A stretch of DNA of 48,056 nt, from positions 1 to 48,056 of the forward strand of contig VEQZ01000003.1 in NCBI GenBank assembly GCA_018882975.1. Direction: 5' to 3'. Below, one piece after another: positions 1-24,257 of the stretch (the first letter of the stretch is position 1; each line of letters opens with the position of its first letter). Both the position numbers and the translations under genes were made by a program. The stretch comes from Rhodocyclaceae bacterium (GTDB lineage: Bacteria; Pseudomonadota; Gammaproteobacteria; Burkholderiales; UBA3065). Below the pieces are notes generated by a model. The model was not told the DNA's origin and searched no databases. It was given only the letters and a program-made list of their open reading frames with translations.

Positions 1-127
1 GGTAGACGATTTTTTCGGCGTAGTGTGGTTGAGCGTCGGTGGGGATGACGGTGTGGTCGGCGATGATGTAGTCGATGTAGTCGGCCCCCATGGTGCCGGG
101 GTAGCCCAGATAGTTGACCTGAATCGG
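1..127. repeat. Exact direct repeat, copy in GT41 module 3 (probably continues beyond the window edge)
   Basis: 1-127 is identical to 4363-4489. The offset of 4362 keeps the frame; first mismatch is C128 vs T4490. Confidence 0.95.
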
Positions 128-3100
128 CGCCGCACGCAGGGCCATGATGCCCGGCCGGCACCCGGTGGTGTAACCGCCGAGGTCGACGAGTATGTCGACG
201 CCGAGTTCGCGCACCCGCTCTGCAGCGGCCTCGTTGCTCAGCCCGCCGATGCGCTCGAAGCGGTCGAAGTCGCCCAGCATCTTGCGGCGGATCGGGCTGC
301 CATCGTCAAGGCCGATGTCAAAAGCGAACAACTCGAAGCGCTCACGGCAATGGGCGGCGAAGATCCCAACCATGAGCCGGGCTACCGCATGGTCATTGAA
401 GTCTGCCGAGAGGTAGCCAAGCCGTATGCGCGCTGACCGCTGGCGCGCGGAGAAATCCGGGTAAGCCCGCACGCCACCGGACTTGTGCCCCTCGAACGAC
501 ATCGCCACCTGCAGTTGCAGGTCCGGGTCGTCGCTCATGTTGAGCATGCGGAACGGCTGAATGCTGCGCTTGGCGGCGCGGATGCTGTTTTCGCAGCGCG
601 CCACCACCTGCGGCAGGTCGCCCCAGGTGCAGCCGCGCATGCGGGCGAAGATGCACTCGCCGAGCAGAAAGCCGCCTTCGGGGTTGAGTGCGAAGCCCCG
701 GTCGAAGCTCTCGGCGGCCTCACCGAGCCGTCCGGTCTCGAGCAGCAGATTGCCGCGCTCCCAATGGGCGGCTGCCGAGTCGGGCTTGATCTCCACGGCG
801 CGTTCGTAGCAGGCCAGCGCCTCTGCCGGCCGCTTGAGTTCGCGCAGCGTGTTGCCCTTGTTGACTTCGGTCTCGAGCAGGCCCGGGCGGATCGTCGATG
901 CACGTTCGTAGCTCGCGAGCGCCTCCTCGAGCCGCTTGAGCCGGCTCAGCGCGTTGCCACGATTGAGCCAAGCCTCGAAGTAGTCGGGTTTAATGGCGAC
1001 CGCTGCGTCGTAACTCGCGAGAGCTTCCTCCCACTGCTCCGCCGCGGCCTGCGCCATCCCGCGGTTGCACAGGGCCAGCGCGTCACCCGGCCGCAAGCCG
1101 AGCGCCTGGTCATAGCTGGCGATCGCCTCGCGTGCGCGGCCCAGTGCGCGCAGCGTGTTGCCCAGATTCAGATGAGCTTCCACGTAGTCCGGATTGAGGC
1201 GGGCGGCCTTGCCGTAGCTCTCCGCGGCTTCCGCTGGTTTTCCCGCCTTGGCCAAGGCGTTGCCGAGGTTGTAATGGGCGCCGGCATCGTCTGGGTTGAT
1301 TTCGAGGGCTCTGCGGATGCTGGCGATGCCGGCTTCGACCTGACCCGTCTGTTTGAGGGTAAGGCCGAGCAGGTGCAGGCCGTCGAAGTGCTCAGGCTCG
1401 AGCGCGAGAATCTCGCTGTAGATCCGCTGTGCAGCTTCGATGGCGCCGCCGCGATGCAGTCGCATGGCCTCGCGCAGGCGCGACTGGATCAGGGTCGCTT
1501 GCCCGGTGGCGGTCGCGGCTGGTGCCACGCCGCTGGTGCTGGCGGCGCTGGCTTTCGGCGGCGCAGTCGGGCGGGGGGGCTCGCTCGGCTCGTGGGGCAT
1601 GGTGCCACCGGGGCGCTTGGGCCCGGTCTGCGGCTCCGGCGGGGAGGCCTCGTCGACGCGGATGTTGGCCGGAGGTTTGCCTTCGAGGTGGGTGGCCAGC
1701 ATGCGCTCGAAGGCGGTCTCGAGGTTGCGGGTGTAGCGGGCAGTGTCGAACAGCGGTGCGGTGAGTCGGTTGCGCTCGAGCCTTTGGCGCAGTTGCGCCA
1801 GTTCTGCAGGGTTTCGGGCGAGGTGGATGGCGAGGGCTTGATACTCGTCCAGCGAGCGGGTGACGAGTTCCGGCAGACCGGCGGCGCGCAGCAGGCTCGC
1901 CGCCACCCGGCCCGGAAAGCTGTTGCCGAGCGCCGTCAATAGCGGCAGGCCGGCCCAGAGCGCATCGCTGGCGGTGGTATGGGCGTTGTACGGCAGAGTG
2001 TCGAGAAAGAGGTCCGCGAGCCGATGCCGCGCCAGATGTTCCTCGAGCTTCATGCGCGGCGCGAACACCACCCTGGCCGGATCCACGCCGCGGCGCGCGG
2101 CTTCGCGCTGCAGGTTGGGCGCCACGAAGCGGTTGTCGGCCAGCAACCAGAGCACGCTGCCTTCCACCTGCGCGAGGATGCGCATCCACACATCGAAGGT
2201 TTCCGGCGTGATCTTGTAATTGTTGTTGAAGCAGCAGAACACAAAACCGTCCGCGGGCAGGCCGCAGGTCTGCCGGTCGAACTGCTTTTCCGAAGGGCGC
2301 CGCGTCGTGTCGGTCGGTTGGTAACTGTCCGGCAGCCAGGCCACGGCTTCGTCATACCAGCGCGTGCTGGTCGGCGGGATCACTGTGTGATCGGCGATGA
2401 TGTAATCGATGCACGGCGTGCCGAGGGTTCCGGGGAAGCCGAGGAAGTTGACCTGCACCGGTGCCGGGCGCAAGGCGAAGACGCCGTGTCGCGGCTGCCC
2501 GAAGTAGCCATTGAGGTTGATCAGGATGTCGATGCCGGCGTCGCGGACGCGCTGCGCGATGGCGGCATCGCTGAGTTGCCGAATGTCGAGGATGCGACCG
2601 CCAAACGCTGCTTCGATGCGCTTTCGGCGCGGGCTGCCATCGTTGAAGCCATTGTCGAAGGCAAAGATCTCGAAGCGCGCGGCGTCGTGGCGCTCCCAGA
2701 CCTCGGTCAGCAGTATCGAGGTGGCCTGTTCGCGAAATTCGCCGCACAGATAGCCGATGCGGATACGGCCATGCTGGCGCGGCGGCAAGGGCGCGGCCGG
2801 CGTGCCCGCCTTGAACACGGTGTTTGCGTAGACCTGGGCGCAGCGCTGCAACAGTTCTTCTGAGTCGCCGATGCCCTGGTAGCCGAACGGTGTGGCCATC
2901 TGTTCGGACCGGGCAAAACCGGCGTCGATGCGCGCGCGCAACGCGTCGAGACCCGACCAGTCGCACATCAGCATCTTGGCGTGCAGCAGCCGACCAGCCA
3001 GGAACGGGTGCCCAGGGTCGAGTTCGGCGACCTTGTTGTAATGCACCACGGCCTCGACCAGGTCGCGCCCCATCTCGCAGATCGCACCGAGGTTGAAGTG

Positions 3101-5809
3101 TGCCTTCACTTCGCCCGGCGCAAACTCTATTGCGCGTTTGAAGGCCTCCCGCGCAGCGTCACGCTGCCCGGTCTCTTGAAACGCCCGGCCGCGGTTGAGG
3201 TGGGCCTCGGCGTAGCCCGGTTCGAGTTCGATCGCTTTCTCATACCACGGCAGCGCCTCCTGCCAGCGTCTCGCCTGGCTGAGGGCATTGCCGAGGTTGT
3301 AGTAGGCGGCGGCGTGCCGCGGATTGAGACCGATCGCCTTGCGGATCAGCGCTGCCGCTGCCTCCGGCGCGCCCTGCGCCATGCGGCAGACGCCGAGCAT
3401 GTGCAGGCAGTCGAACTGGTCGGGGACTTGCTGCAGCACCGTTTCGTAAAGCGCCCGGGCCTGCGCCAGATCGCCTGCGCGGTGCAGCGCAAAGGCGCGG
3501 CCGACCTGCTGAACGATTTCAGCCGGCAGCGCGTCCGCTGCGCTACTGGTGCTCGCGGTCGCGGCGGGGCCCGCCACCGTGGCTTGCGACTGGGCGGTCG
3601 GCTGGGAGGGCTTGCTCGCGTCGGTGGTGGCCGTGCCGCCGCTGGATTCGGGTGTGGGTGTGGTGGGTATTTCTGTTGGTGTGTCGAGGAGGATGTGCTC
3701 TGGGGCTTGGCCCTTGAGGTGGGTGTCGAGCATGCGCTGGAAGGCGGCTTCGAGGTTGCGGGTGAAGCGGGTGGTGTTGAAGAGGGGGGAGGTGATGCGG
3801 TTGCGGGCGAGTGTTTGGCGCAGTTGGGTGAGTTGCGTGGGGTGGGTGGCGAGTTGGATGGCGAGGGCCTGGTAGTCCTCGAGGGAGTGGGTGACGAGTT
3901 GTGGCAGGCCGACGGTTTGCAGGAGGCTGGCGGACATGCGGCCGGCGAAGCTTTTGCCGAGGCAGGTGAGGACGGGTGCGCCGCCCCAGAGGGCGTCGCT
4001 GGTGGTGGTGCCGCCGTTGAAGGGGAGGGTGTCGAGGACGAGGTCGATGAGGGCGTAGCGGGCGAGGTTGTCGGCGTAGGGCAGGCGTGGCGAGAAGACC
4101 AGGCGTTCGGGGTTGACGTGGTGCTGGCTGGCGAACTGGCGGAGGTTGCTGACTTGTGTGGGGTTGTCGTGGATGAGCCAGAGGACGCTGTGCGGGGTTT
4201 GCTGGAGGATGGACATCCAGACTTTGAAGACTTGGGGGGTGAATTTTTCTGGGCGGTTGAAGCAGCCGAAGACGACGTGGTGGTCTGGGAGGCCGAAGAA
4301 CTGTCGTGTTTTGGGTGTGGCGATTTTTTTGCTGGCGTCGTTGGCCTGGAAGCAGTCGGGGAGGTAGACGATTTTTTCGGCGTAGTGTGGTTGAGCGTCG
4401 GTGGGGATGACGGTGTGGTCGGCGATGATGTAGTCGATGTAGTCGGCCCCCATGGTGCCGGGGTAGCCCAGATAGTTGACCTGAATCGGTGCCGCCCGCA
4501 GGGCGAAGATGCCGGTGCGGCAGTTCTGCGTGAAGCCGTTGAGGTCGATCGCGATGTCGATGCCGAGTTGCCTGCAGAACCGGGCCACCTCGAGATCGCT
4601 CTTGCGCGACACATCGGCAAAGTGGTCGAACGCTGCGGCGATGCGTCTCTGCGTCGCGTCGCTGCCCGCGGTCAACGCAAAGCCGTAGACCTCGAAGCGC
4701 TCACGGTCATGCGCTTCCAGCGCCCCGGCGATCAGGAACGACACCGCGTGCTCGCGGAAGTCCGCCGAAAAGTAGGCGATCTTGATACGCGTGCCCGGTG
4801 CACGCGCGCCTGCTGCCGCAGGCAAGGGCGCGGCCGGCGCCCGCCCGCGCAGGTGGCGCTCGGCTGCCTGCCGTTGCAGTGCCGGGTCGTCCACCAGCGC
4901 CAGCAGGGCAAACGGCCGTGGCGCTGCGCCCCCGGTCTGCAAGGCGGCGAGCACCTTGGCGAGTTCGGCATCGAACCCGTCCCAGTCGCACGCCTGCCGC
5001 CTGGCGTAAGGAATCATCAGCCCGACCGCGGACACCTCGGCACCGCAGCGCAGCGCCGACCGATACCGCGCCAAGGCCTCTGCCGGGCGCTTGAGCAGCA
5101 TCAGGGCCTCGCCGGCGTTGGCCAGCACTTCGGCATCGTCCGGCTTGAGCGCCAGGCTCCGCTCGAAACTTTCGACGGCTTCGGCATGGCGCCCTAGGGT
5201 GGCGAGAACCACGCCCCGGTTGACATGCGCTTCGGCCAGCGACGGCCGCGCCCGGATCGCACCCTCGAATGCCGCCAGCGCCTCATCCAGCCGCCGGAAT
5301 CCGCGCAGGGTGTTGCCGCGATTGTGAAAAGCCTCGGCAAAGCCGGGGTCAAGCTGTGTCGCCTTCTCGAAGCAGTCGAGCGCGCGTTGCGGGTCGCCCG
5401 CCTCCTGCAGGGCGAGGCCAAGGCTGTTGTGCACACTGGCGGAGCTTGGGTCGATGTCGGCGGCCCGGGTCAGCAACTCGACGGCGCGTTGCGGCCGGCC
5501 GAGCCGGCGCTGCGCGGCGCCGGCCAGGTGCAGGCAGTCGAAATGGCGCGGATCGGCAGCCAGCACCCGCTCGCACGCCGCCAGCGCCTTGGCGAAGTCG
5601 CCGTTACGAAAACCTTGGACGGCCAAGGCGGCGATGTCCGCTGCCCCTGTGCCCGCCTGTTCCGCTGGCTGCACGCCCTTGGCTGCCGCTGCTGCCGGCA
5701 GCGCCACTGTCGTCTTGGCCGGGCTCGTCTTTGACGGGTTCGACACGGTGGCCGCTGCCGCCGCTGGCTTGGGCTTGCGGGCGGAGGGCTTGGGGTTTCT
5801 CTTGGCCAT
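1..5809 (-). CDS. Giant multi-module TPR / GT41 (O-GlcNAc transferase/SPINDLY-like) glycosyltransferase, 3' end truncated by window edge (>=1936 aa)
   Basis: ATG at 5809 (MAKRNPKPSARK...). Hand translation found no stop down to position 2, and the ORF track lists no minus-strand ORF in this frame, as expected for an ORF without a stop. Three TPR arrays (about 6, 5 and 8 repeats), each followed by GT41 motifs: RIKIAYFSADFREHAV / RIRIGYLCGEFREQAT / RIRLGYLSADFNDHAV; QVN(Y/F)LG(Y/F)PGT; FN..xK; LDTLP(F/Y)N..TT.SDALW. Confidence 0.9.
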   Translation of the reverse strand, partial: MAKRNPKPSARKPKPAAAAATVSNPSKTSPAKTTVALPAAAAAKGVQPAEQAGTGAADIAALAVQGFRNGDFAKALAACERVLAADPRHFDCLHLAGAAQRRLGRPQRAVELLTRAADIDPSSASVHNSLGLALQEAGDPQRALDCFEKATQLDPGFAEAFHNRGNTLRGFRRLDEALAAFEGAIRARPSLAEAHVNRGVVLATLGRHAEAVESFERSLALKPDDAEVLANAGEALMLLKRPAEALARYRSALRCGAEVSAVGLMIPYARRQACDWDGFDAELAKVLAALQTGGAAPRPFALLALVDDPALQRQAAERHLRGRAPAAPLPAAAGARAPGTRIKIAYFSADFREHAVSFLIAGALEAHDRERFEVYGFALTAGSDATQRRIAAAFDHFADVSRKSDLEVARFCRQLGIDIAIDLNGFTQNCRTGIFALRAAPIQVNYLGYPGTMGADYIDYIIADHTVIPTDAQPHYAEKIVYLPDCFQANDASKKIATPKTRQFFGLPDHHVVFGCFNRPEKFTPQVFKVWMSILQQTPHSVLWLIHDNPTQVSNLRQFASQHHVNPERLVFSPRLPYADNLARYALIDLVLDTLPFNGGTTTSDALWGGAPVLTCLGKSFAGRMSASLLQTVGLPQLVTHSLEDYQALAIQLATHPTQLTQLRQTLARNRITSPLFNTTRFTRNLEAAFQRMLDTHLKGQAPEHILLDTPTEIPTTPTPESSGGTATTDASKPSQPTAQSQATVAGPAATASTSSAADALPAEIVQQVGRAFALHRAGDLAQARALYETVLQQVPDQFDCLHMLGVCRMAQGAPEAAAALIRKAIGLNPRHAAAYYNLGNALSQARRWQEALPWYEKAIELEPGYAEAHLNRGRAFQETGQRDAAREAFKRAIEFAPGEVKAHFNLGAICEMGRDLVEAVVHYNKVAELDPGHPFLAGRLLHAKMLMCDWSGLDALRARIDAGFARSEQMATPFGYQGIGDSEELLQRCAQVYANTVFKAGTPAAPLPPRQHGRIRIGYLCGEFREQATSILLTEVWERHDAARFEIFAFDNGFNDGSPRRKRIEAAFGGRILDIRQLSDAAIAQRVRDAGIDILINLNGYFGQPRHGVFALRPAPVQVNFLGFPGTLGTPCIDYIIADHTVIPPTSTRWYDEAVAWLPDSYQPTDTTRRPSEKQFDRQTCGLPADGFVFCCFNNNYKITPETFDVWMRILAQVEGSVLWLLADNRFVAPNLQREAARRGVDPARVVFAPRMKLEEHLARHRLADLFLDTLPYNAHTTASDALWAGLPLLTALGNSFPGRVAASLLRAAGLPELVTRSLDEYQALAIHLARNPAELAQLRQRLERNRLTAPLFDTARYTRNLETAFERMLATHLEGKPPANIRVDEASPPEPQTGPKRPGGTMPHEPSEPPRPTAPPKASAASTSGVAPAATATGQATLIQSRLREAMRLHRGGAIEAAQRIYSEILALEPEHFDGLHLLGLTLKQTGQVEAGIASIRRALEINPDDAGAHYNLGNALAKAGKPAEAAESYGKAARLNPDYVEAHLNLGNTLRALGRAREAIASYDQALGLRPGDALALCNRGMAQAAAEQWEEALASYDAAVAIKPDYFEAWLNRGNALSRLKRLEEALASYERASTIRPGLLETEVNKGNTLRELKRPAEALACYERAVEIKPDSAAAHWERGNLLLETGRLGEAAESFDRGFALNPEGGFLLGECIFARMRGCTWGDLPQVVARCENSIRAAKRSIQPFRMLNMSDDPDLQLQVAMSFEGHKSGGVRAYPDFSARQRSARIRLGYLSADFNDHAVARLMVGIFAAHCRERFELFAFDIGLDDGSPIRRKMLGDFDRFERIGGLSNEAAAERVRELGVDILVDLGGYTTGCRPGIMALRAAPIQVNYLGYPGTMGADYIDYIIADHTVIPTDAQPHYAEKIVY
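3640..4489. repeat. Strongly G/T-skewed, duplicated tract (GRINS-like) encoding the C-terminal half of GT41 module 1
   Basis: Hand count of 3781-3840: G33 C6 T14 A7, versus G23 C16 T13 A8 in the homologous module-2 segment 1741-1800. Its right end (4363-4489) is repeated exactly at 1-127. Left boundary approximate. Confidence 0.75.
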
Positions 5810-5916
5810 GCGGGGTCTGCGGTCTGGGCTTCTGCGTGTCTGCGGGCAATGGATGGCCGACCCCGATACCGGGGCAGACCCCCGAACCGCCGGGTCGGCC
5901 CGCGATCAAGAGGCGA

Positions 5917-6103: not shown

Positions 6104-6188
<85 letters not shown>

Positions 6189-6224
6189 GTTTTCGCAGTT
6201 TCGGTTGTTCGCAAAGCGGGCCAG

Positions 6225-6298
6225 GCGGGAGTAGTTCAATGGCAGAACCTCAGCCTTCCAAGCTGATGACGCGGGTTCGATTCCCGTCTCCCGCTCCA
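6225..6298 (+). tRNA. tRNA-Gly(TCC)
   Basis: GCGGGAG...CTCCCGC-T-CCA, anticodon loop CTTCCAA, GGTTCGATTCC; 74 nt. Confidence 0.97.
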
Positions 6299-6343
6299 AG
6301 AACCTCCCAAATGAAGTCCAGCAACGTGTAGTGACGGCTCACC

Positions 6344-6418
<75 letters not shown>

Positions 6419-6438
6419 CCAATTGACGAGAGGCAGCG

Positions 6439-7629
6439 ATGGCAAAGGAAAAGTTCGAGCGGACCAAGCCGCACGTGAATGTGGGGACGATTGGTCACGT
6501 GGACCATGGCAAGACGACATTGACGGCGGCGATCACGACGATCCTGTCGAAGAAGCATGGTGGTGAGGCCAAGGGTTACGCGGACATTGATTCGGCGCCG
6601 GAGGAGAAGGCGCGCGGGATCACGATCAACACGGCGCACGTGGAGTACGAGACGGAGTCGCGTCACTACGCGCACGTGGACTGCCCGGGTCACGCCGACT
6701 ACGTGAAGAACATGATTACTGGCGCGGCGCAGATGGACGGCGCGATTCTGGTGGTGTCGGCGGCTGACGGTCCGATGCCGCAGACGCGCGAGCACATTCT
6801 GCTGGCGCGTCAGGTGGGTGTGCCTTACATCATCGTGTTCATGAACAAGGCGGACATGGTGGATGACGCCGAGCTGCTTGAGCTGGTCGAGATGGAAGTG
6901 CGCGAGCTGCTGTCCAAGTACGATTTCCCGGGTGATGACATCCCCATTGTCATTGGTTCGGCGCTGAAGGCGTTGGAAGGTGACCAGTCGGACATCGGCG
7001 AAGGCGCGATCATGAAGCTGGCGGCGGCGCTGGACAGCTACATTCCGACGCCGGAGCGTGCCATTGACAAGCCGTTCCTGCTGCCGATCGAAGACGTGTT
7101 CTCGATCTCGGGTCGTGGCACGGTGGTGACGGGTCGTGTTGAGCGCGGCATCGTCAAGGTCGGTGAGGAAATCGAGATCGTTGGTATCAAGCCGACGGTG
7201 AAGACCACCTGCACCGGTGTTGAGATGTTCCGCAAGCTGCTTGACCAGGGTCAGGCGGGTGACAACGTTGGTGTGCTGCTGCGTGGCACCAAGCGTGAGG
7301 ACGTGGAGCGTGGTCAGGTGCTGGCCAAGCCGGGCAGCATCACGCCGCACACCAAGTTCACGGCGGAGATCTATGTGTTGAGCAAGGACGAGGGTGGTCG
7401 TCACACGCCGTTCTTCAATGGCTACCGTCCGCAGTTCTATTTCCGCACCACGGATGTGACGGGTGCGATCGAATTGCCGGAAGGCACCGAGATGGTGATG
7501 CCGGGCGACAACGTGTCGATCACGGCGGCGCTGATTGCGCCGATCGCGATGGAAGAGGGCTTGCGTTTCGCCATTCGCGAAGGCGGCCGCACCGTCGGCG
7601 CCGGCGTCGTGGCAAAGATCATCGAGTAA
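6439..7629 (+). CDS. tuf: Elongation factor Tu (tRNA-linked copy)
   Basis: [39 protein letters not shown]; 396 aa. Confidence 0.99.
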
Positions 7630-7682
7630 GCCCGTTTTCGATCAAAAGGTTTCCCGGCCTTCGGGCCGGGAGTTGTAGCAGC

Positions 7683-7758
7683 AGGCCAGTAGCTCAATTG
7701 GCAGAGCGTCGGTCTCCAAAACCGAAGGTTGGGGGTTCGAGACCCTCCTGGCCTGCCA
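7683..7758 (+). tRNA. tRNA-Trp(CCA)
   Basis: AGGCCAG...CTGGCCT-G-CCA, anticodon loop CTCCAAA; usual position between tuf and secE; 76 nt. Confidence 0.96.
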
Positions 7759-10739: not shown

Positions 10740-11120
10740 ATGGCTGCAAGCAAGGCCGACATCCTCGACGCGATCGCGAACATGACTGTTCTTGACCTGT
10801 CCGAGCTGATCAAGGAAATGGAAGAGAAGTTCGGCGTGTCCGCTGCCGCGACCGCTGTTGCCGTGGCCGCCCCGGCCGCCGGCGCCGCCGCACCCGCCGC
10901 TGAAGAGAAGACTGAGTTCGACGTGATCCTCGCCGCTGCCGGCGAGAAGAAGGTCGAAGTGATCAAGGTCGTTCGCGCCGTGACCGGTCTCGGCCTGAAG
11001 GAAGCGAAGGATCTGGTCGACGGCGCTCCGAAGCCGGTCAAGGAAGCCATCAGCAAGGCCGATGCAGAATCCCTGAAGAAGCAGTTGGAAGACGCCGGCG
11101 CCAAGGTCGAAGTCAAGTAA
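10740..11120 (+). CDS. rplL: 50S ribosomal protein L7/L12
   Basis: [10 protein letters not shown] hinge, [10 protein letters not shown]...[11 protein letters not shown]...AGAKVEVK. Confidence 0.99.
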
Positions 11121-11134
11121 CCGCGGTTGCCTTT

Positions 11135-11158
11135 GGGTGTCCGGCGTGCCGGACACCC
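11135..11158. other. Strong GC hairpin in the rplL-rpoB intergenic region
   Basis: GGGTGTCCGGC-GT-GCCGGACACCC inverted repeat; no downstream U-tract, so role uncertain. Confidence 0.45.
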
Positions 11159-11356
11159 CCACATACCCGGTCGGTTGCCGATCTTCGGCGACCGTCCTGC
11201 ATCAAGAGGAACGAGTACACACCGCTTGATCCGCATTGCCACTGATCACTGCCGTAGCCGTCACGCGGAGCTGCCCGAGGGGCAGCCCGGTGGCGGCGTT
11301 CGTTCCGTTCTGGCTACCCAGCCACCCCCGAAGTTGGTTTGATCACCGGAGATGTC

Positions 11357-15643
<4,287 letters not shown>

Positions 15644-23066: not shown

Positions 23067-24257
23067 ATGGCAAAGGAAAAGTTCGAGCGGACCAAGCCGC
23101 ACGTGAATGTGGGGACGATTGGTCACGTGGACCATGGCAAGACGACATTGACGGCGGCGATCACGACGATCCTGTCGAAGAAGCATGGTGGTGAGGCCAA
23201 GGGTTACGCGGACATTGATTCGGCGCCGGAGGAGAAGGCGCGCGGGATCACGATCAACACGGCGCACGTGGAGTACGAGACGGAGTCGCGTCACTACGCG
23301 CACGTGGACTGCCCGGGTCACGCCGACTACGTGAAGAACATGATTACTGGCGCGGCGCAGATGGACGGCGCGATTCTGGTGGTGTCGGCGGCTGACGGTC
23401 CGATGCCGCAGACGCGCGAGCACATTCTGCTGGCGCGTCAGGTGGGTGTGCCTTACATCATCGTGTTCATGAACAAGGCGGACATGGTGGATGACGCCGA
23501 GCTGCTTGAGCTGGTCGAGATGGAAGTGCGCGAGCTGCTGTCCAAGTACGATTTCCCGGGTGATGACATCCCCATTGTCATTGGTTCGGCGCTGAAGGCG
23601 TTGGAAGGTGACCAGTCGGACATCGGCGAAGGCGCGATCATGAAGCTGGCGGCGGCGCTGGACAGCTACATTCCGACGCCGGAGCGTGCCATTGACAAGC
23701 CGTTCCTGCTGCCGATCGAAGACGTGTTCTCGATCTCGGGTCGTGGCACGGTGGTGACGGGTCGTGTTGAGCGCGGCATCGTCAAGGTCGGTGAGGAAAT
23801 CGAGATCGTTGGTATCAAGCCGACGGTGAAGACCACCTGCACCGGTGTTGAGATGTTCCGCAAGCTGCTTGACCAGGGTCAGGCGGGTGACAACGTTGGT
23901 GTGCTGCTGCGTGGCACCAAGCGTGAGGACGTGGAGCGTGGTCAGGTGCTGGCCAAGCCGGGCAGCATCACGCCGCACACCAAGTTCACGGCGGAGATCT
24001 ATGTGTTGAGCAAGGACGAGGGTGGTCGTCACACGCCGTTCTTCAATGGCTACCGTCCGCAGTTCTATTTCCGCACCACGGATGTGACGGGTGCGATCGA
24101 ATTGCCGGAAGGCACCGAGATGGTGATGCCGGGCGACAACGTGTCGATCACGGCGGCGCTGATTGCGCCGATCGCGATGGAAGAGGGCTTGCGTTTCGCC
24201 ATTCGCGAAGGCGGCCGCACCGTCGGCGCCGGCGTCGTGGCAAAGATCATCGAGTAA
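23067..24257 (+). CDS. tuf: Elongation factor Tu (str operon copy)
   Basis: Protein identical to 6439-7629. Confidence 0.99.

What the first reader, a model, noticed from the sequence alone, without database searches (positions are those of the whole stretch)
3640..4489. GRINS-like skewed, duplicated tract recoding and homogenising the GT41 C-terminal catalytic lobe
Seen: ~850 bp with extreme + strand G>C and T>A skew (3781-3840: G33/C6/T14/A7, versus G23/C16/T13/A8 in the homologous module-2 segment). The skewed tract begins close to where modules 1 and 3 become 100% identical (4363-4489 = 1-127), while upstream of that point they are clearly divergent. The protein shifts in the direction of the skew: module 1 HPTQLTQLRQTLARNRITSPLFNTTRFTRNL vs module 2 NPAELAQLRQRLERNRLTAPLFDTARYTRNL (A>T, E>Q, D>N, all loss of coding-strand G). 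Known: GRINS (genetic repeats of intense nucleotide skews) are roughly kb-sized duplicated skewed tracts described mainly in modular PKS genes and attributed to gene conversion. Inference: the same mechanism is exchanging the nucleotide-sugar-binding lobe between glycosyltransferase modules while leaving TPRs and N-lobes distinct.
Basis: partly seen in the sequence, partly recalled or inferred. Interest (0 to 1): 0.82.

Follow-up and report, generated by a model that had tools for sequence, protein, structure and literature searches.

The report
Skewed recoded stretch in glycosyltransferase gene
About 870 bases of a three-module sugar-transferase gene use almost only C- or A-ending codons, matching the known but unexplained "GRINS" skew; the second copy that GRINS requires is visible for only 127 bases, because the assembled piece of DNA ends there.

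Summary
Window 3579-4446 (868 nt) has + strand GC skew 0.47 and TA skew 0.29. This is the most extreme 400-nt skew in the 1.95-Mb genome: 0.506 against a genome SD of 0.068.

The gene lies on the minus strand and encodes a multi-module TPR-GT41 (OGT-like) protein. The skew sits at silent sites: codon position 3 is C 74 %, A 15 %, G 11 %, T 0.3 % (1 of 288). The protein is shifted too: Pro+Thr+His+Gln make up 28.7 %, against 18.2 ± 1.8 % in 120 homologues.

Modules 1 and 3 are 100 % identical over 4363-4489 = 1-127. Just upstream, their N-lobes share only about 45 % of residues. But window position 1 is a contig end, and 127 is the largest exact contig-end overlap in this assembly. The 127 nt is therefore a lower bound set by the assembler.

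No other contig, related genome, metagenome contig, protein record or usable sequencing run holds the missing part.

The GRINS criteria for length and skew are met. The criterion of more than 500 bp at more than 80 % identity is not shown. None of 156 related GT41 loci carries such a skew.

Verdict: probably a new GRINS member outside polyketide genes, of a kind this scan has noted on other DNA many times. Modest interest.

The parts
2..5809 (-). Partial gene for a multi-module TPR + GT41 (O-GlcNAc-transferase-like) protein, 1936 aa as read. It has three modules; the third is cut off by the contig end at window position 1.
   Evidence: ORF list and translation. Pfam PF13844 Glyco_transf_41 at E 4.6e-203 in 5 stretches, plus TPR families. 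PDB: human OGT 6tka at 5.5e-72 and Xanthomonas OGT 2jlb at 6.9e-69.
3579..4446 (-). The skewed, recoded tract of 868 nt, covering aa 456-743 of module 1. It spans the last 39 residues of the N-terminal catalytic lobe, the whole C-terminal catalytic lobe, and about 32 residues of tail and linker.
   Evidence: Maximum-scoring segment. Composition G407 C146 T203 A112 on the + strand. Codon position 3 is C .740, A .149, G .108, T .003. Sliding position-3 skew is -0.53 to -0.95 with sharp ends. Lobe limits come from the alignment to human OGT.
3677..4312 (-). C-terminal catalytic lobe (C-Cat) of module 1, aa 500-711. It lies entirely inside the skewed tract.
   Evidence: phmmer alignment to human OGT chain 6tka: query 180-391 matches chain 511-720.
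4363..4489 (-). Module-1 copy of the 127-nt stretch that is identical in module 3 (aa 441-482, end of N-Cat). Its left 84 nt lie in the skewed tract and its right 43 nt lie outside it.
   Evidence: exact match of 127. Alignment A1 shows the first mismatch on the adjacent base.
1..127 (-). Module-3 copy of the identical 127 nt, at the very end of contig C79. Its continuation, the expected module-3 C-lobe, is not in the assembly.
   Evidence: The window is G000:C79:1-48056. No other contig carries this sequence. 127 is the largest exact contig-end overlap in the assembly.
1548..2415 (-). Module-2 counterpart of the tract. It is not recoded: position 3 is G .358, C .486, T .083, A .073. The best DNA similarity, 1652-2014 vs 3683-4045, is 74.7 %.
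128..1547 (-). Module-3 TPR region and N-terminal catalytic lobe. This is unique sequence, with ordinary codon composition.
   Evidence: The module-3 N-lobe is 45 % identical in protein to that of module 1 and 43 % to that of module 2.

Best explanation
The tract is a GRINS-type element inside a three-module TPR-GT41 glycosyltransferase gene.

About 870 nt, encoding the end of the N-lobe, the whole nucleotide-sugar-binding C-lobe and the start of the linker of module 1, have been recoded. On the coding strand, silent positions are almost only C or A, and replaceable residues have drifted towards Pro, Thr, His and Gln. The same sequence has been copied into module 3 by recombination or gene conversion between modules. 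The upstream junction lies in the conserved GYPGT.G..YIDYIIAD region of the N-lobe.

Shown:
- the extreme skew, concentrated at silent sites;
- its sharp limits;
- the shift in amino-acid composition;
- at least 127 identical nt in module 3, next to anciently diverged sequence.

Inferred:
- the module-3 copy runs on through the whole tract;
- the exchange was conversion rather than another recombination outcome;
- the skew helps recombination. The tract's single strands have less than half the predicted self-folding energy of the rest of the gene, which could help strand invasion. This last point is my speculation.

How the skew arises is unknown, here as in the GRINS paper.
For: - The 400-nt GC skew of 0.506 is the genome maximum, about 7 SD out.
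- Position 3 of the 288 tract codons is C 213, A 43, G 31, T 1, against 616/113/475/114 in the rest of the gene. Chi-square is 114, p 1e-24, and P(at most 1 T3) is 1.4e-10.
- Codon choices are reversed relative to module 2: Val GTC 14/GTG 0 vs 2/11; Pro CCG 2 of 24 vs 20 of 30; Lys AAA 7/AAG 2 vs 2/4.
- At residues identical in modules 1 and 2, module-2 G3 corresponds to C3 32 times, A3 7 times and G3 10 times. T3 corresponds to C3 at 12 of 12 sites, and C3 is kept at 75 of 77.
- With the GRINS paper's own window settings, mean |GC| is 0.475 and mean |TA| is 0.239; the threshold is 0.15.
- Pro+Thr+His+Gln are 0.287 vs 0.182 ± 0.018 in 120 homologues, the direction the paper reports for negatively skewed tracts.
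- The domain still looks functional. It keeps 87 of 98 columns that are at least 90 % conserved, and it matches human OGT over both lobes.
- Modules 1 and 3 are identical for 127 nt, and 84 of those are already skewed. The mismatch starts on the next base, while the N-lobes are only 43-45 % identical in protein.
- The contig stops exactly one maximal overlap (127 nt) into the shared sequence. This is what a collapsed repeat gives in a de Bruijn-graph assembly (my knowledge of such assemblers).
- Contigs of a roughly 97 %-identical strain in run X1 cover three parts of the tract (4 differences in 151 nt, 3 in 151, 5 in 162) and also parts of the flanks. The tract is therefore not peculiar to this one assembly, although X1 may be the source sample or a related one.
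- Predicted RNA folding energy per 300 nt is -55.5 in the tract (4 windows) vs -130.7 ± 15.9 elsewhere in the gene (29 windows; weakest -107.7).
Against: - The duplication that defines GRINS is not seen. Only one 150-nt window pair reaches 80 % identity, 1-150 vs 4351-4500. The whole-genome self-comparison finds no skewed repeat over 300 nt.
- The same contig carries two 1191-nt tuf copies at 100 % identity. The assembler therefore got through one repeat longer than this tract, so the contig break is weak evidence for a long repeat.
- No contig with the expected other junction (tract start joined to the sequence downstream of the gene) is in the genome bin.
- The GC/TA skew correlation inside the tract (r 0.45) is no higher than outside it (r 0.40). 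The paper reports 0.70 vs 0.09.
- Gly+Val+Cys+Trp are not clearly depleted: 0.124 vs 0.135 ± 0.017.
- None of 156 related GT41 loci (1.73 Mb) has a 400-nt |GC skew| above 0.358. Their long inter-module repeats are unskewed. Module homogenisation in this family therefore does not need skew.
- Most silent differences are G-to-C transversions. The transition-based tautomer model in the paper's Discussion does not predict this.
Confidence: 0.55

Rival explanations
1. The skew tract exists once, in module 1, and only a short patch of it (127 to a few hundred nt) was copied into module 3. On this view the tract is the kind of one-copy region of intense skew that the GRINS authors also mention, not a GRINS repeat.
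For: Only 127 nt of identity are visible. The paper's Discussion states that skewed regions present in one copy exist. The assembler passed a 1191-nt perfect repeat elsewhere in this contig, so a break does not require a long repeat. No second junction contig is present.
Against: A short shared patch would normally be bridged by read pairs, so the contig would not end there (my knowledge of assemblers, not tested). The shared stretch already holds 84 nt of fully skewed sequence and runs up to the contig end without a mismatch.
Confidence: 0.27
2. The junction between the module-3 N-lobe and the module-1 tract exists only in part of the population, or only in the assembly graph. It could come from a tandem duplication or unequal crossover between modules in some cells, or from a false join at the conserved motif. 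The reference genome would then have no shared tract in module 3. The skew in module 1 would still be real.
For: The identity length equals the largest contig-end overlap, and the stretch sits at a contig end. Several contig ends in this genome overlap others over 300-500 nt at 91-99 % identity, a sign of mixed strains. The junction lies in the most conserved DNA of the module.
Against: A chain of overlapping 128-mers across positions 127|128 must have been present in the reads for the contig to be built (my knowledge of de Bruijn assemblers, not tested). Module 3 needs a C-lobe to be a working GT41 unit, and its frame stays open through the shared stretch.
Confidence: 0.13
3. The tract is foreign DNA, recombined in from another organism's GT41 gene.
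For: The tract's protein is slightly closer to outside homologues (57.8 % best) than to module 2 (54.5 %). Tract G+C is 63.7 % against 67.6 % for the genome.
Against: Module 2 is likewise closer to outside homologues (64.4 %) than to module 1, so this only shows that the modules are old. No near-identical DNA or protein turned up in 41 related genomes, in the 80 best of 398 matching metagenome stretches, in the 76 loci kept from 182 matching genome stretches, or in two protein searches with best hits of 58-59 %. No locus among 156 has a comparable skew. A codon usage with 0.3 % T3 and 11 % G3 is not any genome's normal usage (my knowledge).
Confidence: 0.03

Closest known systems
[quoted passage not shown]
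   Same: The tract is sub-kilobase in size and lies inside the coding sequence of a modular multi-domain gene. It has intense GC and TA skew of the same sign, strongest at third codon positions, and enrichment of Pro, Thr, His and Gln on the C/A-rich coding strand. An abrupt block of identity to a paralogous module points to gene conversion.
   Different: The host gene is a TPR-GT41 glycosyltransferase, not a PKS. 'glycosyl' occurs 0 times in the paper's main text; its supplements, which list other gene families, could not be opened. The genome is small (1.95 Mb assembled, 91 % complete), and nothing else in its assembled part meets the skew and repeat criteria together. The required repeat of more than 500 bp is not shown, only 127 nt. 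The skew has one sign throughout, whereas the paper describes frequent sign changes.
Ordinary (unskewed) inter-module homogenisation in multi-module TPR-GT41 genes
   Same: 15 of 121 long proteins examined (120 homologues plus the window's own) have 120-residue windows at least 90 % identical between their own modules, and 3 of them reach 100 %. DNA repeats of 1.1-2.0 kb at 85-92 % identity occur in loci L046, L033, L137, L184 and L150. Exchange or recent duplication of module parts is therefore common in this family.
   Different: Those repeats have GC skew between -0.05 and +0.03. None shows recoding of silent sites.
tufA/tufB-type gene conversion between duplicated housekeeping genes
   Same: The same contig holds two tuf genes identical over 1191 nt. 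Recombination that keeps paralogous sequence identical thus appears to operate in this genome.
   Different: The tuf repeat covers the whole gene, has ordinary composition (GC skew 0.17, TA skew -0.04) and involves separate genes, not modules of one gene.

Membership tests
GRINS (definition in PMC8256042, sections 5 and 12) | Region longer than 500 bp | tested here: met
   868 nt, 3579-4446.
GRINS (definition in PMC8256042, sections 5 and 12) | Mean absolute GC skew and mean absolute TA skew both above 0.15 (150-nt windows, step 30) | tested here: met
   0.475 and 0.239 over 24 windows. The 162 non-tract windows of the first 6 kb give 0.085 and 0.157.
GRINS (definition in PMC8256042, sections 5 and 12) | More than 80 % DNA identity to another region of the same cluster or genome over more than 500 bp | tested here: inconclusive
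   Only 127 nt (100 %) are present before the contig ends. The module-2 counterpart is 74.7 % identical over 363 nt. The genome self-comparison finds no other copy. The rest of module 3 is not in any source I could reach.
GRINS (descriptive features, section 5) | Skew most marked at third codon positions | tested here: met
   Coding-strand GC skew is -0.15 at position 1, -0.38 at position 2 and -0.75 at position 3. TA skew at position 3 is -0.96.
GRINS (descriptive features, section 5) | GC and TA skews correlated within the element and not outside it | tested here: inconclusive
   r is 0.45 inside (24 windows) and 0.40 outside (162 windows). The paper reports 0.70 vs 0.09.
GRINS (descriptive features, section 5) | Amino-acid shift: Pro/Thr/His/Gln enriched and Gly/Val/Cys/Trp depleted in negatively skewed coding sequence | tested here: met
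   The enrichment is clear: 0.287 vs 0.182 ± 0.018 in 120 homologues. The depletion is not significant: 0.124 vs 0.135 ± 0.017.
GT41 glycosyltransferase (OGT/SPINDLY family) with TPR domain | Match to the family profile over both catalytic lobes, preceded by TPR repeats | tested here: met
   PF13844 at E 4.6e-203 and 675.8 bits (cut-off 25), with TPR_1 at 1.8e-104. Human OGT and Xanthomonas OGT are the best solved matches.
GT41 glycosyltransferase (OGT/SPINDLY family) with TPR domain | Glycosyl-transfer activity of the recoded module | not testable with these tools
   Only conservation could be checked: 87 of 98 highly conserved columns are kept, against 92 of 98 in module 2.

The most novel reading that the evidence does not exclude
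A GRINS element is active in a small freshwater bacterial genome with no polyketide genes involved. It copies the sugar-nucleotide-binding lobe between non-adjacent modules (1 and 3, skipping module 2) of a modular glycosyltransferase. The silent-site changes are dominated by G-to-C transversions, and the tract's strands are almost free of self-structure. If so, this would be a compact natural system, with one element pair and one gene, for finding what makes and spreads GRINS. It would also argue against the transition-only tautomer model.
Probability: 0.4. Interest if true: 0.45.

Novelty: new member of a known kind. Interest (0 to 1): 0.33.

Why it matters
GRINS were described in 2021 mainly in Streptomyces polyketide synthase genes. 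Their origin and any role in recombination are still unexplained. All 5 papers in the searched library that use the phrase deal with PKS or NRPS genes.

A clear case in a modular glycosyltransferase of a small genome shows that the recoding process is not tied to antibiotic assembly lines. It also offers a simpler setting to study it.

The practical lesson is about assemblies. The key evidence, the second copy, falls exactly where short-read assembly breaks, so such elements are systematically truncated in metagenome-assembled genomes.

The gain is modest. The paper already states that GRINS occur in many phyla and gene families, and this scan had already noted GRINS-like tracts 72 times in at least 58 genomes.

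Tried and rejected
- Looking for the missing module-3 C-lobe. None of the following found it:
  - blastn of window 1-5900 against all 106 contigs and an exact scan of contig ends;
  - a DNA search of 41 genomes (40 relatives plus this one) and a protein search of 21 (20 relatives plus this one) (best non-self 44 %, and 1 of 6 same-genus genomes with any match at E<=1e-30);
  - two searches of the 5.8-billion-protein collection, for long proteins and for fragments (best 58-59 %);
  - metagenome contigs (best 57 %) and genome contigs (best 57 %);
  - earlier notes of this scan, by sequence and by place (nothing).
- Sequencing runs. One run (X1) was offered, holding 0.05 of the sampled words and kept as contigs, not reads. 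Laying it gave 151-162-nt pieces at about 97 % identity and depth about 3. That is too short and too shallow to show copy number or a junction, so it says nothing about the duplication.
- G-quadruplex idea. No (G3+N1-7)x4 motif lies in the tract; the only one in the first 6 kb is at 5771-5795.
- Skew as a family trait. Rejected: 0 of 156 related loci reach a 400-nt |GC skew| above 0.358.
- The second most skewed place in the genome (C44:10601-11100) is a C-rich stretch that starts upstream of an ABC-F-like reading frame and overlaps its beginning. It is not recoded coding sequence of this kind.
- The first self-comparison script for internal protein repeats returned nothing, because blastp reported only the full self-match. 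It was redone with 120-residue windows.
- One search failed on a frame error and was corrected.
Full report
WHAT IS THERE

The finding lies in a long reading frame on the minus strand (window 5809 down to 2, 1936 residues) that runs off the left end of the window. Pfam reads it as TPR repeats plus Glyco_transf_41 (PF13844, E 4.6e-203, five stretches). The best solved matches are human O-GlcNAc transferase (6tka, 5.5e-72) and the Xanthomonas OGT (2jlb, 6.9e-69).

The protein has three TPR + GT41 modules joined by Pro/Thr/Ser-rich linkers, and the third is cut off at window position 1. By the alignment to human OGT, module 1 has its N-terminal catalytic lobe at aa 339-494 and its C-terminal lobe at aa 500-711, which is window 4312-3677.

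The gene sits divergently beside tRNA-Tyr/Gly/Thr, tuf, tRNA-Trp, rplK, rpoB, rpoC and fusA, so it is on the core chromosome. The genome is a 1.95-Mb, 106-contig, 67.6 % G+C assembly, and the window is the first 48,056 bases of contig C79.

THE SKEW IS REAL AND EXTREME

The best-scoring G+T-rich segment on the + strand is 3579-4446. It holds G407, C146, T203, A112, giving GC skew 0.472 and TA skew 0.289.

Across 38,303 windows of 400 nt in the whole genome, GC skew has an SD of 0.068. The maximum, 0.506, is in this tract. Only one other place exceeds 0.33: a C-rich stretch that starts upstream of an ABC-F-like reading frame and overlaps its beginning.

THE SKEW IS A RECODING OF SILENT SITES

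On the coding strand, the 288 tract codons have at position 3: C 213, A 43, G 31, T 1. The rest of the gene has 616/113/475/114 (chi-square 114, p 1e-24; the probability of at most one T3 is 1.4e-10). A sliding view shows T3 = 0 from about aa 473 to 740 and sharp ends on both sides.

Codon choices are reversed relative to module 2:
- Val GTC 14/GTG 0, vs 2/11;
- Pro CCG 2 of 24, vs 20 of 30;
- Ala GCG 1 of 25, vs 13 of 35;
- Lys AAA 7/AAG 2, vs 2/4.

At residues identical in modules 1 and 2:
- a module-2 G3 corresponds in module 1 to C3 32 times, A3 7 times and G3 10 times;
- T3 corresponds to C3 at 12 of 12 sites;
- C3 is kept at 75 of 77 sites.

The protein has moved the same way. Pro+Thr+His+Gln are 28.7 % in module 1, 21.1 % in module 2, and 18.2 ± 1.8 % (max 22.5 %) in 120 homologue segments. 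Gly+Val+Cys+Trp are not clearly lower (12.4 % vs 13.5 ± 1.7 %). At positions 1-2 of differing codons, G is lost 68 times and gained 32 times.

The domain still looks like a working one: 87 of 98 columns that are at least 90 % conserved are kept, against 92 of 98 in module 2.

THE IDENTITY WITH MODULE 3, AND WHAT IT DOES AND DOES NOT SHOW

Positions 1-127 equal 4363-4489 exactly. The very next base differs, the following ~30 nt have 4 mismatches, and further on the two modules are about as different as unrelated family members. The three modules are old: N-lobes are 43-45 % identical in protein and the C-lobes of modules 1 and 2 are 54.5 % identical. Each module is as close to outside homologues as to its sisters. 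A jump from that level to 100 % DNA identity is the mark of a recent recombination or conversion event.

Three caveats limit what follows from it.
- Position 1 is a contig end.
- 127 is the largest exact contig-end overlap in this assembly, and it is also the exact end-to-end overlap of C23 and C42. Three independent overlaps of exactly 99 also occur. These are typical k-mer sizes of a de Bruijn assembler (my knowledge). The contig thus begins one k-mer before the point where modules 1 and 3 diverge, and the 127 nt is a minimum, not a measured length.
- The shared stretch (aa 441-482) lies wholly in the N-lobe. Its first 43 nt in the coding direction are not skewed; the remaining 84 nt are.

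The statement that the C-lobe is homogenised between modules 1 and 3 is therefore an extrapolation.

ATTEMPTS TO SEE THE REST OF MODULE 3

All attempts failed.
- No other contig of the genome holds the sequence or the expected second junction.
- No near-identical DNA was found in 41 genomes searched, 40 relatives plus this one.
- The best non-self protein match among 21 genomes (20 relatives plus this one) is 44 %, and only 1 of 6 same-genus genomes has any match at E<=1e-30.
- Two searches of the large protein collection gave at most 58-59 % identity.
- Metagenome and genome contig scans gave at most 57 %.
- One public run (X1, a freshwater metagenome kept as contigs) holds 151-162-nt pieces about 97 % identical to three parts of the tract and to parts of the flanks, at depth about 3. 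This shows that a close strain carries the tract. It cannot show copy number or junctions, and it may not be independent of the source sample.

The same contig contains two tuf genes identical over 1191 nt, so this assembler did pass one longer repeat. The contig break at the GT41 repeat therefore fits a collapsed long repeat but does not prove one.

COMPARISON WITH GRINS

In PMC8256042 (outline, sections 5, 6, 10, 11 and 12, and term-search passages read), GRINS are defined by three criteria:
- a region longer than 500 bp;
- more than 80 % DNA identity to another region;
- mean absolute GC and TA skews above 0.15.

Descriptively, the skew is strongest at third codon positions, and Pro/Thr/His/Gln are enriched in negatively skewed coding sequence.

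With the paper's own window settings, the tract gives mean |GC| 0.475 and |TA| 0.239. Length, skew, codon-position pattern and amino-acid shift all fit. The repeat criterion is not shown: only one 150-nt window pair reaches 80 %, and the module-2 counterpart is 74.7 % identical over 363 nt. The GC/TA correlation inside the tract (r 0.45) is no higher than outside (0.40). The paper's Discussion notes that intensely skewed regions present in one copy also exist, which is the main rival reading here.

IS THIS A FAMILY HABIT?

Multi-module TPR-GT41 proteins are common in metagenomes, up to 3385 residues. Of the 121 long proteins examined (120 homologues plus the window's own), 15 have 120-residue windows at least 90 % identical between their own modules, and three reach 100 %. 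Long DNA repeats between modules occur in several loci, for example L137 (1966 nt, 92.5 %) and L046 (1873 nt, 88.6 %). Their GC skew is between -0.05 and +0.03, and no 400-nt window in 156 loci (1.73 Mb) exceeds 0.358. Exchange between modules is therefore ordinary in this family; the recoding is not.

MECHANISM

- Shown: a sharply bounded recoded tract and an abrupt block of identity to a distant module.
- Inferred: gene conversion or another homologous exchange carried the tract into module 3, entering through the most conserved DNA of the N-lobe.
- Unknown, as in the literature: what creates the skew.

Two descriptive points may help.
- The dominant silent difference is G to C, a transversion, whereas the paper's tentative tautomer model predicts transitions. 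Because modules 1 and 2 are old paralogues, this reflects equilibrium composition rather than counted mutations.
- The tract's RNA, and by the same logic its single DNA strands, has less than half the predicted folding energy of the rest of the gene: -55.5 vs -130.7 ± 15.9 kcal/mol per 300 nt. This is a direct consequence of removing complementary bases. That it eases strand invasion is my speculation.

No G-quadruplex motif lies in the tract.

NOVELTY AND VERDICT

The five papers in the library that use the GRINS phrase all concern PKS or NRPS genes, and 'glycosyl' does not occur in the main text of the GRINS paper. Its supplements, which list other gene families, were closed. The paper does state that GRINS occur across phyla and gene families, and this scan has already noted GRINS-like tracts 72 times in at least 58 genomes.

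I rate this a probable new member of a known kind. The decisive test is reads or long reads across window position 1, and it remains open.

Noticed in passing
window 6439-7629 and 23067-24257: Two tuf (EF-Tu) genes on the same contig are 100 % identical over 1191 nt, with ordinary composition (GC skew 0.17). This is either classical tuf gene conversion or collapse of near-identical copies by the assembler.
   Followed up: partly
G000 contig C44:10601-11100: The only other place in the genome with a 400-nt |GC skew| above 0.33 (-0.357). It is a C-rich stretch that starts upstream of an ABC-F-type ATPase reading frame (10944-12668) and overlaps its beginning.
   Followed up: partly
window 1501-1900: The end of module 2's C-lobe and its Pro-rich linker show a milder skew of the same sign: + strand GC skew 0.18-0.26 and AT skew down to -0.56 (TA skew up to 0.56). 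Part comes from codon positions 1-2, and position-3 skew reaches -0.45 at aa 1321-1380. It could be an eroded older tract, or simply the Pro-rich composition.
   Followed up: partly
proteins P0014, P0017, P0023; loci L137:4531-8827, L046:1765-6129: Other multi-module TPR-GT41 genes carry stretches identical or near-identical between their own modules, but without nucleotide skew.
   Followed up: yes
G000 contig ends, e.g. C106:1-477 vs C67:2858-3334, C16:1-446 vs C83:44515-44960: Several contig ends overlap other contigs over 300-500 nt at 91-99 % identity. This suggests mixed strains in the assembled population, which may explain some contig breaks.
   Followed up: no
window 2-5809 and neighbours 6104-7758: The large GT41 gene sits divergently next to the tRNA-tuf-rpoBC core cluster. 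With this query it was not found at E<=1e-30 in 5 of 6 same-genus genomes, and the sixth has only a 37 % relative. It therefore looks like an accessory gene in a core neighbourhood.
   Followed up: partly
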